In this document: positions 6,001 to 12,000 of the stretch, piece after piece
Layout of the letters: each line of letters opens with the position of its first letter
How positions within the stretch are numbered: the first letter of the stretch is position 1
Assembly: GCA_043822305.1 (NCBI GenBank)
Contig: JBDRBU010000084.1
Location: 1 to 25,041 of the forward strand
Direction of reading: 5' to 3'
Source of the DNA: Candidatus Firestoneibacteriota bacterium
Lineage (GTDB): Bacteria; Oederibacteriota; D2-FULL-39-29; JBDRBU01
DNA length: 25,041 nucleotides
Position numbers: made by a program

Positions 6001-9000
6001 GATTACATTGGAATGTAAATAATTCCGAATAAATGAGGCATTCGTATAATCTAACATATCACTACTTACAAGTAGCTTTCCACCTTGATCAAGATAACCT
6101 TTTAGATTTTCTAACACAGTGATATCAACACCCATCTCACCTGTCCACCAAATTACTTTCTTAAAAAGAGATAATATCTCTACACTTGGAAATGGCTCAA
6201 CCAAAGCATCTACTACTGCAAATTCATACCCATTATAATCCATCGCATTTTTGAAAGATGGGAAATAATCGAAGTTTCCAAAGTAAGGATCAGCAACATC
6301 TATCCCATCATCATCTATCAATAAAACAGGAGGCAATATAAACTTAAATGAAAATACACCTACCTCAGGTAATCTACCAATATTTGTCCCATCAAATGCT
6401 GTAATATAATAATAGACTGTGGTCTTATCTGCTTGCTTTGGAATAATACCTATATAATTTCCTTTCCCATCAGAGTTCATCTTTACCTCGGTGAAAGGTT
6501 CGATGCCTGTAGTATTCCAGTAGACACAAGGGTTAATAACTTCAGCATTATCTGTAATAGTTGCCTTCACTTGCCGATCTTCATATATTTTCCAGGTATC
6601 ACCAAGTGGCATATGAATAATTTGAGGTGGTTCAGTGTCTGGAAGTATATTAAAAGAATAAGTGCCTGTAGATGGAGAATAAGATGCGTTTGGTACACCT
6701 GCACCGTCTTTTGCATAAATATAATAATATATAGTAGTTCCTCCTGATTGACCAGGAATATTTCCCTGATATGTATCTAATCCGGTTAAACTCATAATTA
6801 CTTCATTAAAAGGAGCAAATCCTGTTGTATTCCAAAAAAGCGATACATTGTTTACTTTTACATTATCAGTAACTTTTGCTGATATATAATATTCAGTTAC
6901 TATATATGTATCAGAATACGGAGTATGAGTAATAACAGGAGGTGTAATATCTATTCCTACTCTCATTGTCCAGGTTTCTGATGGTGCATTCACCGGACTT
7001 AAAGAAGGCCCAGACTGGATAGTAGCTTTAAAATAGTAATAAATTATTGTCCCTTCACTTTGAGACGGGATGTTTCCAGAATATTCATCTGGATTTCCAG
7101 TAGAGATCATATTAACTTGCGTAAAATTTATTTCATCAAAAGAATAATATAATAAAGTCTCATTAAGAGGAAAGAAAGAAGTAATCACTGCTGTTATCGG
7201 TATAGGGCTGGTAGTATTTTCAGTATCAGAAGGTGTGTGTGAAATTTTTGGTTTAATGTGACAAAGGGTTTTGTCTACATTTATTCTACCATATCCAAAC
7301 TTTTCATCATAGCCAACATCTCCTAAATCATCTACTCCTAGTTGAATATAGTTTTTAATTTCATCCCTTGTCAGCAATGTATCACTCGACCACACTAATG
7401 CAGCTAATCCAGCGACTTGAGGAGTGGCCATAGAAGTTCCACTATAGAAGCCATAATTATTGCCTGGTAGTGAACTTAAAATTCCGGCTGACTGGCTCCC
7501 TCCTCCGCCGGGTGCTGCTACCGATACTCCTCCTCCATAAGATGAATAGTAAGCAAGAGTATCATCAATGGTAGTAGCTGAAATAGCCATACATTCAGGG
7601 TAAGCAGCAGGATAGAAAATACCATCGTTACCATTGTTGCCACGAGCAACTACGATTAAACATCCTTTGTTGTATGCATAAATTACTGCATTATGAACAA
7701 CACTTGAATCACTTGTTCCTCCTAAACTCATACTAATAACTTTTGCACCATTATCAGCAGCATAGATTATACCATTAGCTACTGATTCATTAGATCCCGA
7801 ACCCTGATCTGTTAATACCTTAACCGCTAATATTTGTGCTCCCCAGGAAACCCCTGCAACACCTTTAGCATTATTAGTAATCGCCGAAGCAATACCCGAA
7901 CAATGAGTTCCATGACCATGTCCATCCATAGGGTCATAATCATTATTAGCAAAATCATATCCTTTTATAACTTTACCAGCTAAATCTTCATGATTATAAT
8001 CTACTCCTGTATCAACAATGGCAATGGTAATATTACTTCCTCCGGTAGATGTACTCCATCCTAATTCAGATTGCATTCTAATATGACACCATTGCTCAGA
8101 ATATCTCGTATCATTAGGAGTAGTAAAAATTTCATAATAACTAACAGGCTCTGCTACTTCTATTAAAGGATTCTTCTTTAATTGTTCTAAATACTCTTCT
8201 ACTTTTTTCCCTTTAGGTAACTTGATTTTTTTATATCCCAATTTGCTAATACCTTGAAATTCCTTCTTCCCTGGAAATTTCTTCATTCCTGGAAATTTCT
8301 CTTCTACTATATTGCCTACATTAAATGTGCTTAATAATTTACCCATCATTGCTGGATTAACATTCTTCTTGAATTTTACAATTAACTCTCCTTCTACATA
8401 CTTCTGACTCTCTTTTGCCTTCCATAATTCAGCTTCTAATTTATTTACTCCCACAAGAAAAAATAGAATCAAAAAACTGCTTATCCACTTTACATTATTT
8501 AATCTTTTCATTTTTCTCCTCTTTAAGTAGTAGCAGGCTTTAGCCTGCATTCCTTTCTTATTCTTTACATAAAAATTATAACACTATTTTTCTGTTTTGT
8601 CAAGAGTAATTCATTGCTTTTCGGGATAGTATATTGCTTTTTTAGGTATTACATTGATGATTTTCGGTATTCGGAAGGAGACAAGCCATTGATTTTTTTA
8701 AAGACTTTGGAAAAGTAATTTGTATTCTTAAAACCACATCTCATAGATGCTTCGTTTACATTTAATCTTATATCTTTTAAAAGTTTCTTTGATTTTTCAA
8801 TTCTTAAATATGTCAAATACTCAAAGATTGTTTTTCCAGTTTCTTTTTTAAAAACTCTTGACAAATGAAAGGGAGATAATTTTAAAAAATCGGATACAGT
8901 AGTTAATTTTAATGGTTTATGTAAATTCTCTTCTAAAAAATTAATCGTATTACTGGCTAAATGCGAATAAAGTGGTTTTGTTTCTAAACTTTTTAGTTCA

Positions 9001-12000
9001 ACAGCAGCATTCTTTAAACTAATATACGGTTCTATTTTATTATTTAAAGTGTTCCAAATCGCATTTCTTAAAACTGGAAAAATTTTCTCAAAAGAAGGAA
9101 TTTTATGAATATTTTTTATTTTCACCTCTTCAAAAAATTTGGGAGCATCCTTATAAAAGGGCTTATCTTTTAATACATCTTTATCAAAACAAATGCTCTT
9201 CCTTGCAGAAAAACTACCTCCACCCAGAAGTTCTACTTTCTTTTGATTTTCAAAACTTGTAAAAAATTTAAGCAATTCTATGGATGACTGAGGGAAACTC
9301 ACCGATTTAGAAATTCCATATGCAAATTCCCAAATTACTGTAGTCGCTTCTTTTCCTTCTTCTCCCAGAGGGATACGCATTAAATCTAATTTATACTTAG
9401 TATTATTAAATATTTCTTTTAGTAAAAGCGAGGAACATAAAAAAAATATCATATTACCTTCACACAATTTTTTAATTTTTTCATTTCCCCTTAATCTTAA
9501 TATTTCTTCAGGAACAATCTTAAACTTATATATTAAATCCTGTATGAATTGCAATGTATCTACAACATTTTTTTCTAATAGCCCTAATTTCCCGCCTTTT
9601 TTGTAAATCTCTCCATCATTATTATATAAAAGTGATAAAAATAAATTAACTAAATTATTTCCGTCTAAAGGAAACCACATTAAACCCGATAAATTGGGAT
9701 TATTTTCTTTTTTTATAATAATCTCTACTTGTTTTATCAATTCATCCCATGTTTTTGGAGGCAAAAATCCATATTTTCTTAATAGGTCTTTCCTGTATAC
9801 AATTAACTCACATTTTATATCATCCGGGATAGCATAAAGGCACCCCCCAAAAGAACATCCCTCTAATCCTGCATGAAAAAAATCTTTTTTATCTTCGTCA
9901 CTTAAAACATTGTCTAATTCCAATAGAAACTTATCTTTAGCCAGAAGTTGCATAGTATTAAACTCTAAAGGGACTACTCCAATATTTTTATTAGATGTTA
10001 TGTTCTCTTTTATATAAGGAAGATTATCCCAAGTATCTATATCTAATATTTCCACCTTAATGTCTGGATGAATTTTTTGAAAATCGTTAATTATATTTTC
10101 TATCGCTTTACCCTTATATGTTATTAGTTTTATCTCTATTTTTTTTGCACTACCACTTAAAATATTCTGGTATATTTCAAGACTCTTTCCTGTACGAATT
10201 TCATTATTGTCTATTAGTAGTTCTCTGACGGACTTATCACAATCTATATTACTTGCTTTTATTACATAAATTATTTTTCTAATTCTATTTTCTATCTCTG
10301 TATATTTCAACAAAATGACATTGTCTGCTATTTTAAAAATTTCTTCTTCGCTATTTACAGTATTCAATGTAAGCAATAAACCTTTTTCTAAAAACATTGT
10401 TTTTAAAATCTTTATTACTTTAAAGAGAATTATTCCTTTATTTTCAAATTCTTTAATCTCGTCTATGACAACTCTTTCAATATTTGAATTTGCTAATTTA
10501 AAAATCTTATCAAGAATCTCTTCAATAAATAAATCTTGCGAAATATTCAAAATTTCTAATGTCCCTTTATTTAAAACTTCTTTTAAATTGAAATTTATTA
10601 AATTAGCCGTTCTGGCTAACTTTTCCATTTCAATATCAAAACCTATATATAAACATTTTTCTTTGAATTCTATCCCTGTCTTCAAAAATTTCAAAGAAAA
10701 TAAGGTTTTACCAATACCAGATTGTCCTCCTATTAAACTAATTTCCCCTTTTAAAAATCCTCCATCTAAAACTTCATCTAACTTACTTATGCCTGTTTTA
10801 ACTTTAATATAACTTTTTTTTATGGATTTTTGAGAAAGTTCCCTTGTCAAATGCTCAAGATTAGGATATACCTTTAATCCATTATTAGTAATTTTTAACA
10901 AATGCTTCCCCTCAGAAAAGGGGCTCCATCTTGATTTTAAAACACTGATAGTTCTCTTAAACGGTTCTTCATTTATTCCAAGTTTAATAATTATATCAAC
11001 CAAGCAATCTAAATAATGAAACATATTCTCATTATTTATTAAAAGGACAGATATATTCTCGTTCTTGATTTTTCTTAAGAATGAAAGAAGTATATTATGA
11101 AATTTAACGGCATCTTTTGATATGTGATATAATGGATTAATACTGTCTATGACAATTCTTTTTATCTTATATTTTCTAATTAATTTGTAAAGAAAACTGC
11201 TTTTAAAATTAAACATACTTTTATAAACATTTATAACATCGGAAACAATGAAGAGTCTTTTTTGTTTTTTTAAACCAGAAAAATTCCAATTAAAATTTTT
11301 TGCATAATAATTTAAAATTTCTTCTTCTGTATTACTAAAAGATAAAAATATAGATGGTTCATTGGATTTATATATAAATTGTAATCCAAACATAGTCTTA
11401 CCGGTTCCAGAAGAACCTTCAAGGAGTATTGAACCACCTGGCAAGATTCCTTCATGCAATAATCCATCTACTCCTATTTTCATGGTATCATCTCTTGACA
11501 TTTGACATATCGCCTTTTATAAAGACAGGGTCTAAAGACCCTTGACTACTCAAAATTTGTTAATGGAGTCGGGGTCGTCTCTGACCCTAACATACCTTCT
11601 CTAATCCTATAATATAATAAAATATAGATTTTTCAAATGTTTTTATGTATCTTCTGGATTTTTCTATCTCTTCGTTGTATTTTTGCAAAAAGATTTCTTT
11701 ATTTTCCATAATTACCCATAGTTTAATATTTTTGTTTTACCTTTTAAAGCCATTAAAGCTCCTGCGGCCAGAGATTCCATTTCTTTTTCTCCTAGATAAA
11801 CATAAACAGGTGCTATATATTTTATCTTTGGTTTAATTAATTTAATTAACATTTTACTTCTGGCTAAATTTCCGGCAAGGATAATGGCCGATACTTTTCC
11901 ATTTAAAACTGTAGCCATAGAACCAATATACTTTGCAATATTATAAGCCATGGCTTTAAAAATTAATTTTGCTTTATTATTTCCTGTTTTTATCATTTTT

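What a model noticed while it worked through the whole genome (the two positions that open the first line are those of the whole stretch)
8649..11501. KaiC-like double ATPase fused to a solute-binding-protein fold and an AraC DNA-binding domain
g01299 (950 aa, minus) joins two KaiC/RecA-type ATPase domains (res 10-437), a type-1 solute-binding-protein fold (464-753) and an AraC-type double helix-turn-helix (856-947) in one protein without a hydrophobic segment. It reads like a one-component regulator that couples a KaiC-type ATPase to ligand sensing and transcription; it is the gene just downstream, on the same strand, of phosphate butyryltransferase and butyrate kinase (g01301, g01300).
Evidence so far: pfam.tsv coordinates; best Swiss-Prot hit KaiC, 29% over res 10-470; highest 19-residue Kyte-Doolittle mean 1.3. 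ESM Atlas: nearest cluster (score 0.89, 201 of 256 features) is an 879-aa KaiC-ATPase + SBP_bac_1 family of 52 members, commonest in Armatimonadota; other neighbours are plain ~500-aa KaiC-like proteins.
(Added by a program. Inside this text positions count along the whole contig: contig position 1 is position 1 of the stretch shown here. "Call 12" and the like, gene names such as g00115 and contig names such as C1 are that model's own, and its searches are not shown. The text may have been shortened before it was handed on; [...] marks where a part breaks off. The agent that wrote the report below was given it as the finding of a first reader that could run no searches.)

Follow-up and report, generated by a model that had tools for sequence, protein, structure and literature searches.

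The report
KaiC-ATPase, sugar-sensor, AraC fusion regulator
A single cytoplasmic protein joins a clock-type (KaiC-like) double ATPase, a sugar-binding-protein fold and an AraC DNA-binding domain, and it most likely switches the very large secreted protease gene next to it rather than keeping time.

Summary
ORF 8649-11501 (-) encodes 950 aa: two KaiC/RecA-type domains, a complete MalE-like sugar-binding fold and an AraC double HTH, with no hydrophobic segment.

It is not a clock KaiC. The alignment puts S55-N56 and D289-I290 at KaiC's glutamate pairs and F388-K389 at its S-T pair. The KaiC equivalog cut-offs are missed, and the genome has no KaiA or KaiB.

The long form is rare: 6 clusters in 5.8 billion and 2 of 99 genomes of the phylum. 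It belongs to a wider ~730-aa family (single KaiC domain + SBP + AraC). That family has at least 7 copies in each of two related genomes, often beside glycoside-hydrolase genes or genes for giant secreted proteins.

The likely target is not ptb-buk. It is the gene downstream, a secreted S8 protease of at least 2837 aa. All three ortholog loci carry a tandem 20-bp repeat (CAAT-N16-CAAT-N9-TTKAC) abutting the -35 of the next gene's promoter. This is the usual layout of AraC-family operators, as I recall it. The own genome (2.15 Mb) holds this pattern only there.

Proposed working: an ATP-bound oligomer, gated by a sugar, that controls this promoter. Binding, ligand and oligomer state are inferred. 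I class it as a new variant of a known kind, interest about 0.6.

The parts
8649..11501 (-). Regulator gene, 950 aa (P0001)
   Evidence: ORF list and translation; six colinear homologues
10857..11474 (-). KaiC-like domain CI (res 10-215). Walker A GSSGTGKT at 11394-11417, Walker B RIVID at 11145-11159. S55-N56 stand where KaiC has its glutamate pair.
   Evidence: Pfam PF06745; genome scan; alignment to a solved KaiC
10191..10805 (-). KaiC-like domain CII (res 233-437). Walker A GQSGIGKT at 10704-10727, Walker B RVVID at 10461-10475. D289-I290 replace the glutamate pair and F388-K389 replace the S-T pair. DKSVRE with invariant R426 is kept.
8982..10133 (-). Complete two-lobed sugar-type solute-binding fold (res 457-840), internal to the protein, without signal peptide
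   Evidence: Pfam SBP_bac_1; MalE3 6dtq E 1.8e-26 over chain 23-391 of 400, and TMBP 1eu8; AF2 model pLDDT 91.9; Foldseek 6dtq 1.6e-28, apo MalE3 TMt 0.84
8652..8951 (-). AraC/XylS-type DNA-binding domain with two helix-turn-helix motifs (res 851-950)
   Evidence: PF12833 75.1 bits, PF00165 72.4 bits with two stretches; XylR 4fe4 and MarA chains
8613..8641 (-). Candidate operator: two exact AAAAGCAAT copies 20 bp apart (8641-8633 and 8621-8613). The proximal copy ends 9 nt before the -35 hexamer.
   Evidence: sequence
8575..8603 (-). Sigma-70-type promoter of the giant gene: TTGACA, 17 nt, TATAAT, 12 of 12 matches, with TG before the -10
8533..8548 (-). GC-rich hairpin GCAGGCTAAAGCCTGC between the promoter and the ribosome-binding site of the giant gene
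1..8511 (-). Proposed target: giant secreted protein, at least 2837 aa, cut by the contig end. It has a signal-peptide-like N-terminus, a fervidolysin-type prodomain, an S8 subtilase domain, TIG domains and a BNR-like region. The likely start is ATG 8511, after AGGAGA.
11609..11636 (-). Promoter-like site of the regulator itself (TTGAAA, 16 nt, TATTAT; 10 of 12), in the 210-nt gap after buk. It is followed by hairpin AGGGTCTTTAGACCCT (11542-11527).
11712..14140 (-). Upstream ilvN-like / ptb / buk genes with overlapping reading frames. They are neighbours and are not shown to be targets.

Best explanation
P0001 is a cytoplasmic one-component transcription factor. Its C-terminal AraC domain most likely binds the tandem 20-bp repeat (two AAAAGCAAT boxes, 8641-8613) that abuts the -35 hexamer of the promoter just downstream of its own gene. 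In this way it would control the gene for a secreted S8 protease/TIG protein of at least 2837 aa. The MalE-like solute-binding fold is the sensor. By homology it should close on an imported small carbohydrate, probably an oligosaccharide, and pass that change to the AraC domain only about 10 residues away. The N-terminal double KaiC-like module keeps both nucleotide-binding loops but lacks KaiC's phosphosites and catalytic glutamates. I therefore read it as an ATP-binding assembly module, ring-forming by analogy with KaiC, that sets how many DNA-binding arms act together and may report energy state. It would not be a timer. In logic the whole resembles MalT (ATP plus inducer gives an oligomer that activates) built from different parts. 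Shown here: the architecture and its conservation, the loss of clock features, the conserved operator-like repeat with a promoter, and the conserved downstream giant-protein genes. Inferred: DNA binding at that repeat, the kind of ligand, the oligomeric state, and whether the protein activates or represses.
For: Architecture and conservation. Identity among orthologues by part is CI 35-55%, CII 43-54%, SBP 46-62% and AraC 55-68%, so every part is under constraint. Walker A is intact in CII of 6 of 6 orthologues and in CI of 5 of 6. The Walker B aspartates D119 and D347, and R426 in DKSVRE, are invariant. The SBP fold is complete and of sugar type. Target: the pattern CAAT-N16-CAAT-N9-TTKAC occurs once in the window, with 0 of 100 shuffles giving any hit. 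It occurs once in the whole 2.15-Mb genome, with 0 hits for the reversed control. Among 191 fetched loci (2.03 Mb) it occurs only at the three ortholog sites, each time just after the regulator's stop and on the -35 of the next gene's promoter. Self-similarity at offset 20 of the 55 bp ending at the -35 is 14, 17 and 14 of 20, against at most 10 at the other offsets from 15 to 25. Shuffles reach these values 3, 0 and 2 times in 5000. Of 18 other intergenic regions, 4 in this window, two gave a top repeat that fewer than 10 of 300 shuffles reached: one at offset 20, in a paralogue cassette (7 of 300), and one at offset 18 (8 of 300). The window's own four gave 40 to 208 of 300. Neighbourhood: all 3 ortholog loci have a giant protein gene downstream on the same strand, of at least 2837, 1760 and 2803 aa. 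The C-terminal third of the window's giant protein, and the 927-aa and 1290-aa proteins of the window, have homologues next to a single-KaiC paralogue in G013. Paralogues sit in gene clusters with GH28, GH94, GH141, GH31, PcRGLX-like, GH123-like and deacetylase genes, which fits a sugar sensor.
Against: No experiment or expression data exists, and no sequencing run could be listed. The repeat pattern was derived from the same three loci it is then counted in, so only its absence elsewhere and the shuffle tests are independent. The giant gene's promoter is a perfect 12 of 12 consensus and should not need an activator, so repression or fine-tuning is as likely as activation. P0001 has no glutamate at either catalytic position of CI or CII, so ATP turnover may be absent. 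The target proteins differ between orthologues: an S8 protease here, and PorV-like plus beta-propeller/Big_1 proteins in the other two. The upstream flanks of the two other ortholog loci are only about 2 kb. The contexts of four of the five database homologues (P0002-P0005) could not be fetched.
Confidence: 0.55

Rival explanations
1. The regulator controls the upstream ilvN-ptb-buk genes (short-chain or branched-chain acyl-phosphate fermentation), as the first reader guessed from position.
For: Same strand and adjacent. AraC-family regulators often control neighbouring metabolic genes (general knowledge).
Against: Neither of the 2 other ortholog loci has ptb or buk immediately upstream: G014 has MatE and L112 has a 590-aa OmpL47/CTD-type protein. 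The region upstream of ilvN and the buk-regulator gap show no significant tandem repeat (148 and 40 of 300 shuffles reach them) and no copy of the CAAT pattern.
Confidence: 0.08
2. The solute-binding fold no longer senses a ligand. It serves as a rigid spacer or contact surface, and the only input is the nucleotide state (ATP/ADP) of the KaiC-like module.
For: Cytoplasmic SBP folds can lose ligand binding (general knowledge). I could not map pocket residues because no model coordinates are returned. KaiC-type proteins respond to ATP/ADP (recalled).
Against: The SBP part is among the best conserved (46-62% among orthologues). Both lobes are complete and match liganded sugar binders along the whole chain. 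Paralogues with diverged SBP parts (about 25-33% identity to this one) sit in different carbohydrate-enzyme clusters, as expected if the pocket sets specificity.
Confidence: 0.15
3. The tandem repeat is the site of some other factor (or an UP-like element), and this regulator acts on distant genes.
For: Cognate binding is not shown. A-rich tracts upstream of -35 can act as UP elements (general knowledge). G014 has a further AT-rich copy of the pattern upstream of a glycosyltransferase-like ORF on another contig, so sites away from the regulator gene exist.
Against: The repeat travels with the regulator gene in 3 of 3 ortholog loci although the downstream genes differ. The own genome has no other copy.
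Confidence: 0.12
4. It is a true KaiC-type timer (an hourglass) with direct transcriptional output.
For: Double-domain order colinear with KaiC, E 4e-42. CI matches CI and CII matches CII of plain KaiC-like proteins.
Against: F388-K389 align with KaiC's S-T pair in ...HISTITD..., which I recall as the phosphorylated residues. No glutamate stands at either catalytic pair. Scores of 189 and 144 bits are far below the KaiC equivalog cut-offs of 408 and 546. KaiA and KaiB were not found in a genome 96.8% complete.
Confidence: 0.04

Closest known systems
KaiC, cyanobacterial clock ATPase (PDB 1tf7, 2gbl, 4o0m, 8zn5)
   Same: Two tandem RecA-type domains in the same order. Walker A and Walker B are present in both. 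The segment DKSVRE is kept where KaiC CII has HDKEIRE.
   Different: No phosphosites, no catalytic glutamate pairs, no KaiA or KaiB. KaiC's C-terminal tail is replaced by an SBP fold and a DNA-binding domain. The protein scores far below the KaiC equivalog cut-offs.
Single-KaiC-domain + SBP + AraC proteins of about 730 aa (e.g. P0050, which JGI labels 'AraC-like DNA-binding protein/KaiC/GvpD/RAD55 family RecA-like ATPase'); uncharacterised
   Same: The SBP and AraC parts are the nearest relatives outside the orthologues (32% and 42% identity). The order of domains is the same. They also lie beside genes for secreted or carbohydrate-active proteins.
   Different: They carry one ATPase domain, not two. 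P0001's CI and CII are each closer to the matching domain of plain double KaiC-like proteins. The long form therefore looks like a whole double KaiC-like protein joined to the SBP-AraC module.
879-aa double KaiC + SBP family without AraC (P0058; Atlas cluster of 52 members)
   Same: Double KaiC followed by SBP; aligns over residues 9-838 (27% identity, E 3.5e-69).
   Different: It has no DNA-binding domain, and it keeps the KaiC-type FEQ/FEE glutamates.
E. coli XylR (PDB 4fe4) and B. subtilis Btr: binding-protein fold + AraC regulators
   Same: A periplasmic-binding-protein-type sensor is fused directly to an AraC domain in a cytoplasmic regulator. XylR aligns over residues 834-947, and Btr's NCBIfam model matches the AraC part.
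   Different: As recalled, XylR uses a LacI-type (type I) fold and Btr a siderophore-type fold, and Btr has the opposite domain order. Neither has an ATPase module.
MalT (STAND ATPase + sensor + HTH activator of the maltose regulon); compared from memory, not tested
   Same: The proposed logic is the same: nucleotide plus sugar inducer leads to self-association and promoter control.
   Different: MalT's ATPase is of the STAND/AAA+ type, its sensor is a helical repeat domain and its output is a LuxR-type HTH. There is no sequence relation.
Archaeal KaiC-like signalling ATPases (ArlH, GvpD, CirA-D; Makarova, Galperin and Koonin 2017, mBio, doi 10.1128/mBio.01959-17; seen only as a reference-list entry in PMC11680916, contents recalled)
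   Same: KaiC-like domains used outside clocks as signalling modules. The GvpD P-loop and ArlH models give weak matches.
   Different: As far as I recall, those act through separate partner proteins. Here sensor and DNA-binding output are on the same chain, and in a bacterium.

Membership tests
KaiC circadian clock protein (NCBIfam TIGR02655 / NF006799) | Score over the curated equivalog cut-off | tested here: not met
   189.4 bits against 408, and 144 bits against 546.25
KaiC circadian clock protein | Two colinear RecA-type domains, each with a Walker A loop | tested here: met
   Pfam gives two stretches; GSSGTGKT and GQSGIGKT; colinear with solved KaiC over 5-461
KaiC circadian clock protein | Catalytic glutamate pair after strand 2 in CI and CII (FEE in the solved KaiC) | tested here: not met
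   S55-N56 and D289-I290 align there. In the orthologues, CI has a glutamate at the second position in 4 of 6, and CII has D or N followed by a hydrophobic residue in 6 of 6.
KaiC circadian clock protein | Serine-threonine phosphorylation pair in CII (IST in the aligned KaiC; the role is recalled) | tested here: not met
   F388-K389 align with S-T; no orthologue has S or T at either position
KaiC circadian clock protein | KaiB (and KaiA) partners in the genome | tested here: not met
   PF07689 and PF07688 give no match in G000, which is 96.8% complete; the control genomes ring
KaiC-like / RecA-superfamily ATPase domain (Pfam PF06745) | Profile match over the gathering score | tested here: met
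   200.5 bits against 26.6, two stretches
KaiC-like / RecA-superfamily ATPase domain | Ring (hexamer) assembly | not testable with these tools
   No tool here measures oligomeric state. It is inferred only from homology and from the conserved DKSVRE arginine.
AraC/XylS family transcription regulator | C-terminal domain with two helix-turn-helix motifs | tested here: met
   PF12833 75.1 bits (cut-off 33.6); PF00165 72.4 bits with two stretches
AraC/XylS family transcription regulator | Binds direct repeats next to or overlapping the -35 of its target (typical of the family; recalled) | tested here: inconclusive
   A conserved 20-bp tandem repeat abuts the -35 in 3 of 3 ortholog loci. Binding itself is untested.
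ABC-transporter solute-binding protein, sugar type (Pfam PF01547) | Two-lobed binding-protein fold | tested here: met
   68.8 bits against 26; 6dtq E 1.8e-26 over chain 23-391 of 400; Foldseek 1.6e-28, TMt 0.79-0.84
ABC-transporter solute-binding protein, sugar type | Exported (signal peptide or lipobox) and encoded with permease genes | tested here: not met
   The domain is internal, at residues 457-840. The highest hydropathy mean is 1.3. No permease family was found among the window's eight other large ORFs.
STAND regulators of the MalT type | STAND/NB-ARC-type NTPase domain | tested here: not met
   Only RecA/KaiC-type and generic P-loop models match. This is an analogy of logic, not membership.

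The most novel reading that the evidence does not exclude
A KaiC-type ATPase ring is wired directly to DNA. Six sugar-sensor/AraC arms hang from a nucleotide-loaded double ring, so that one protein computes 'substrate present AND energy charge adequate' before the cell commits to making a secreted enzyme of more than 2800 residues. This would be the first case of a KaiC homologue whose output is its own DNA-binding domain, and a ready model for what non-clock KaiC proteins do in bacteria.
Probability: 0.25. Interest if true: 0.8.

Novelty: new variant of a known kind. Interest (0 to 1): 0.62.

Why it matters
KaiC homologues are widespread outside cyanobacteria, and their roles are mostly unknown. 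Here the sensor, the ATPase and the DNA-binding output lie on one chain, and a candidate operator and target gene lie next to it. The function of a non-clock KaiC module therefore becomes directly testable with a gel shift, a reporter and a ligand screen. The protein also points to a so far undescribed family of regulators (KaiC-like + SBP + AraC). In an uncultivated lineage, that family has multiplied alongside genes for glycoside hydrolases and giant secreted proteins. It is thus a handle on how these bacteria decide to deploy very costly extracellular enzymes. Two full-text searches found no paper that links KaiC or KaiC-like to AraC.

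Tried and rejected
1. Complex prediction on two copies of residues 1-456 (alignment A3, 26 rows) scored 0.00 against a mark of 0.42, with the verdict 'no answer'. It says nothing either way on self-association.

2. The look-up of sequencing runs on 8400-11800: no run, RNA or DNA, was listed, so no reads could be laid.

3. The search for related loci in genome contigs gave 74 loci, all matching the KaiC part only, with no full-length relative. The scan may leave out genomes near the window's own.

4. The search for related loci in metagenome contigs kept 80 loci and found only one full-length orthologue, L112.

5. The profile search with the ~730-aa family (A2) was swamped by plain KaiC and plain SBP proteins. 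It recovered only P0050 and P0006, so it gave no taxonomic range.

6. Earlier findings of this scan, looked up by place and by sequence: nothing to show.

7. The Makarova 2017 paper could not be read by DOI or by PMC id.

8. Rfam at gathering threshold on the window, L112 and L094 gave no match, and the window has no tRNA.

9. I considered a domain duplication as the origin of the two ATPase domains and rejected it. CI is closest to CI, and CII to CII, of plain double KaiC-like proteins, while CI against CII within the protein is only 29% over 116 residues.

10. I considered that the fusion might be an artefact and rejected it, because of the colinear orthologues.

11. Literature searches for an SBP-AraC fusion and for Firestonebacteria biology gave nothing bearing on this protein. 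For both I saw only the listings and abstract starts.

Full report
OBSERVATION

The minus-strand ORF 8649-11501 encodes 950 residues.
- KaiC-type ATPase PF06745, 200.5 bits, two stretches, best 10-215. The second stretch maps to 10191-10802.
- SBP_bac_1, residues 464-753.
- HTH_AraC and HTH_18, residues 856-947.

- Solved KaiC chains match residues 5-461 at E 4e-42.
- The solute-binding part aligns with the whole of Thermotoga MalE3 (chain 23-391 of 400, E 1.8e-26) and with the Thermococcus trehalose/maltose-binding protein.
- The highest 19-residue hydropathy mean is 1.3.
- An AlphaFold2 model of residues 454-950, from an alignment of 34 rows, has mean pLDDT 91.9 and pTM 0.77. Its best structural matches are oligosaccharide-binding proteins of ABC transporters: MalE3 at 1.6e-28, and apo MalE3 at TMt 0.84.

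The linkers are very short. The SBP fold begins within a few residues of the end of CII, and the AraC domain follows about 10 residues after the end of the SBP fold.

IS THE FUSION REAL, AND HOW RARE IS IT

Several searches bear on this.
- The word-indexed search of 5.8 billion protein clusters found five full-length colinear homologues, P0002-P0006 (951-962 aa, 43-59% identity). One is named as coming from a Candidatus Firestonebacteria genome. All six proteins align end to end.
- The exhaustive HMMER search of 1.84 billion representatives listed only two full-length ones, P0005 and P0006.
- Among 99 genomes of the window's phylum, the long form is present in 2: the window's own genome and G014 (40% identity).
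- A scan of metagenome contigs gave one full-length locus, L112.
- A pattern scan of species-representative genomes gave none. All 74 loci matched the KaiC part only, and near relatives of the window's genome may have been left out.

The long form is therefore real and rare, but it is not isolated.
- One search lists 16 representatives of 700-770 aa that align to residues about 224-260 through 917-949. Pfam, run on six of them, found one KaiC domain + SBP + AraC in all six.
- Eleven further representatives of 720-760 aa align in two stretches. Of the seven I scanned, four carry a weaker KaiC match and three carry none at E 1e-4.
- In one search, G013 has at least 7 and G014 at least 7 such single-domain copies. 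Only 8 of about 30 candidates per genome were scored, so these are lower bounds.
- G006 and G007 have one copy each and G009 two.
- Related forms exist: double KaiC + SBP without AraC (P0058, 877 aa), KaiC + SBP (P0066), SBP + AraC alone (P0068, P0124), and an HD-CE + double KaiC + SBP protein (P0123).
- BLAST of the four parts shows how the long form is built. CI is closest to CI, and CII to CII, of plain double KaiC-like proteins (31-34% identity). The SBP and AraC parts are closest to the single-domain family (32% and 42%). The long form thus looks like a whole double KaiC-like protein joined to the family's SBP-AraC module, not a duplication.

NOT A CLOCK KAIC

The alignment to a solved KaiC puts:
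- S55-N56 where KaiC CI has FEE;
- D289-I290 where CII has FEE;
- F388-K389 where CII has the S-T pair of ...HISTITD... (I recall this pair as the phosphorylated residues).

In the orthologues, CI keeps a glutamate at the second position in 4 of 6; the exceptions are P0001 and P0002. CII has D or N followed by a hydrophobic residue in 6 of 6, and none has S or T at the phosphosite pair. By contrast, P0058, which lacks AraC, keeps FEQ and FEE. Of 20 single-domain proteins aligned, 11 keep a glutamate at the second position.

Nucleotide-binding features are retained:
- GxxGxGK[ST] is intact in CII of 6 of 6 orthologues and in CI of 5 of 6.
- The Walker B aspartates D119 and D347 are invariant.
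- DKSVRE, with R426 invariant, stands where KaiC has HDKEIRE. As I recall, this segment supplies the inter-subunit arginine in KaiC.

The KaiC equivalog models score 189 and 144 bits against cut-offs of 408 and 546. KaiA and KaiB families find nothing in the genome, which is 96.8% complete. I conclude that the module binds nucleotide. In this particular protein it may hydrolyse ATP poorly or not at all.

SURROUNDINGS AND LIKELY TARGET

All large genes of the window lie on the minus strand.
- Upstream of the regulator are an ilvN-like ACT protein, a ptb-like gene and buk, with overlapping reading frames. A 210-nt gap follows, holding a promoter-like site (11636-11609) and a hairpin.
- Downstream, after 137 nt, starts a gene that runs off the contig. 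It encodes at least 2837 aa with a signal-peptide-like N-terminus, a fervidolysin-type prodomain, an S8 subtilase domain, TIG domains and a BNR-like region.
- The 137-nt spacer holds a 12 of 12 sigma-70 promoter with an extended -10 (8603-8575).
- Directly upstream of that promoter are two exact copies of AAAAGCAAT, 20 bp apart (8641-8633 and 8621-8613). The proximal copy ends 9 nt before the -35.

The same layout is found after the stop codon of the two other orthologues for which DNA was available, G014:C57 and L112: CAAT, 16 nt, CAAT, 9 nt, TT(G/T)AC, then a -10-like hexamer.

Statistics of the pattern CAAT-N16-CAAT-N9-TTKAC:
- It occurs once in the window, with 0 of 100 shuffles giving any hit.
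- It occurs once in the whole 2.15-Mb genome, with 0 hits for the reversed control.
- Among 191 fetched loci (2.03 Mb) it occurs only at these three places.
- Because the pattern was drawn from these loci, its presence there is circular. The independent parts are its absence elsewhere and the self-similarity test.
- In that test, the 55 bp ending at the -35 match themselves at offset 20 in 14, 17 and 14 of 20 positions, against at most 10 at any other offset from 15 to 25. Shuffles reach these values 3, 0 and 2 times in 5000.
- Of 18 other intergenic regions, the four in this window gave no convincing repeat (40 to 208 of 300 shuffles reach their best). Two others stood out: the region downstream of a G014 paralogue (15 of 20 at offset 20; 7 of 300 shuffles) and the region downstream of the G013:C29 paralogue (15 of 20 at offset 18; 8 of 300).

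As I recall, two direct repeats about two helical turns apart and touching the -35 are the usual operator layout of AraC/XylS-family proteins.

The neighbourhood agrees with this reading.
- All 3 ortholog loci have a giant protein gene downstream on the same strand. In G014 and L112 it encodes a PQQ-type beta-propeller/Big_1 protein (at least 1760 and 2803 aa). It is preceded by a PorV/PorQ-family gene, and in G014 also by a 412-aa gene.
- Two single-domain paralogues in G014 head the same cassette.
- The window's own large proteins have homologues beside a paralogue in G013. The 927-aa protein matches at 31% over about 700 residues. The C-terminal third of the giant protein and the 1290-aa protein match at 33-36%.
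- Other paralogues sit among genes for GH28, GH94, GH141, an esterase, GH31, a PcRGLX-like protein, a GH123-like protein, a polysaccharide deacetylase, or sugar-acid enzymes.
[quoted passage not shown] Only about 2 kb upstream could be seen at each.

HOW IT MOST LIKELY WORKS

The AraC domain binds the tandem repeat at the promoter next to its own gene. The sugar-type binding fold closes on an imported carbohydrate and passes this to the adjoining DNA-binding domain, as in XylR-type regulators. The nucleotide-loaded KaiC-like module makes the protein self-associate, so that ligand and ATP together set occupancy of the operator. This is the logic of MalT, built from unrelated parts.

Because the promoter here is already a perfect consensus, repression or modulation is as likely as activation. 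Only the anatomy, its conservation, the loss of clock features and the conserved repeat with its promoter are shown. Binding, ligand, oligomer and the sign of regulation are inferred. I give this composite reading a confidence of 0.55.

COMPARISON AND NOVELTY

The parts are all known kinds. The pairing of a binding-protein fold with AraC is known from XylR and Btr. KaiC-like ATPases as signalling modules have been proposed for archaea (Makarova et al. 2017; I saw only the reference entry in PMC11680916, and the paper itself was not held).

Full-text searches for KaiC + AraC + solute-binding, and for KaiC-like + AraC, found 0 papers. A JGI automatic label on P0050 names both halves, so annotation pipelines see the fusion but nobody has described it. 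I class it as a new variant of a known kind.

LIMITS
- There is no expression or binding data.
- Only three ortholog loci could be inspected.
- The contexts of P0002-P0005 were not available.
- No model coordinates are returned, so pocket residues were not mapped.
- Supplements of papers were not consulted.

Noticed in passing
G000, 13 contigs (e.g. C18:5102-5953, C20:1315-2160, C51:32357-33193): The 2.15-Mb genome holds 13 PorV/PorQ-family genes over the NCBIfam cut-off (17 matches in all). That is an unusually large set of outer-membrane shuttle-type proteins for so small a genome.
   Followed up: partly
L094:5209-6312(-), L105:5553-6704(-), L106:9744-10913(+), L112:5290-6351(+): The PorV-like genes that follow the regulators are 85-92% identical in protein between cassettes, and even between G014 and a metagenome contig. 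The regulators (about 30-40% identical to the window's protein) and the giant proteins (44-49% to each other) are far more diverged.
   Followed up: partly
window 11712-14140 (-): An acetolactate-synthase small-subunit-like ACT protein overlaps ptb by 11 nt, and ptb overlaps buk by 41 nt. No large subunit is present in the window. The regulatory subunit is orphaned in a ptb-buk operon.
   Followed up: no
window 8533-8548 and 11527-11542 (-): GC-rich hairpins with 6-bp stems and 4-nt loops lie between the promoter-like site and the ribosome-binding site of both the giant gene and the regulator gene. A further GGGTC...GACCC pair lies at about 11563-11585.
   Followed up: no
window 14372-21045 (-): The 1290-aa TIG protein has a signal-peptide-like start, and its C-terminal ~110 aa resemble the type IX secretion C-terminal domain found in L112's 590-aa protein. 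The 927-aa protein starts with a hydrophobic, pseudopilin-like segment.
   Followed up: partly
G014:C59:456-493 (L206): A second AT-rich copy of CAAT-N16-CAAT-N9-TTGAC lies upstream of a glycosyltransferase-like ORF. Beside it are a remnant resembling the N-terminus of a KaiC domain and transposase-like fragments. It may be a displaced operator or a further target.
   Followed up: partly
G007:C211:1106-3268 (L111:1091-3283): This genome's single-KaiC-SBP-AraC copy is interrupted by one TAA and reads as two ORFs of 376 and 355 aa. It is either a broken gene or a sequencing error.
   Followed up: no
G000:C59:4-426: A fragment matching the C-terminal third of a KaiC domain sits at the very start of another contig of the same genome, with stops nearby. 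It may be the remnant or the cut end of a second KaiC-like gene.
   Followed up: no
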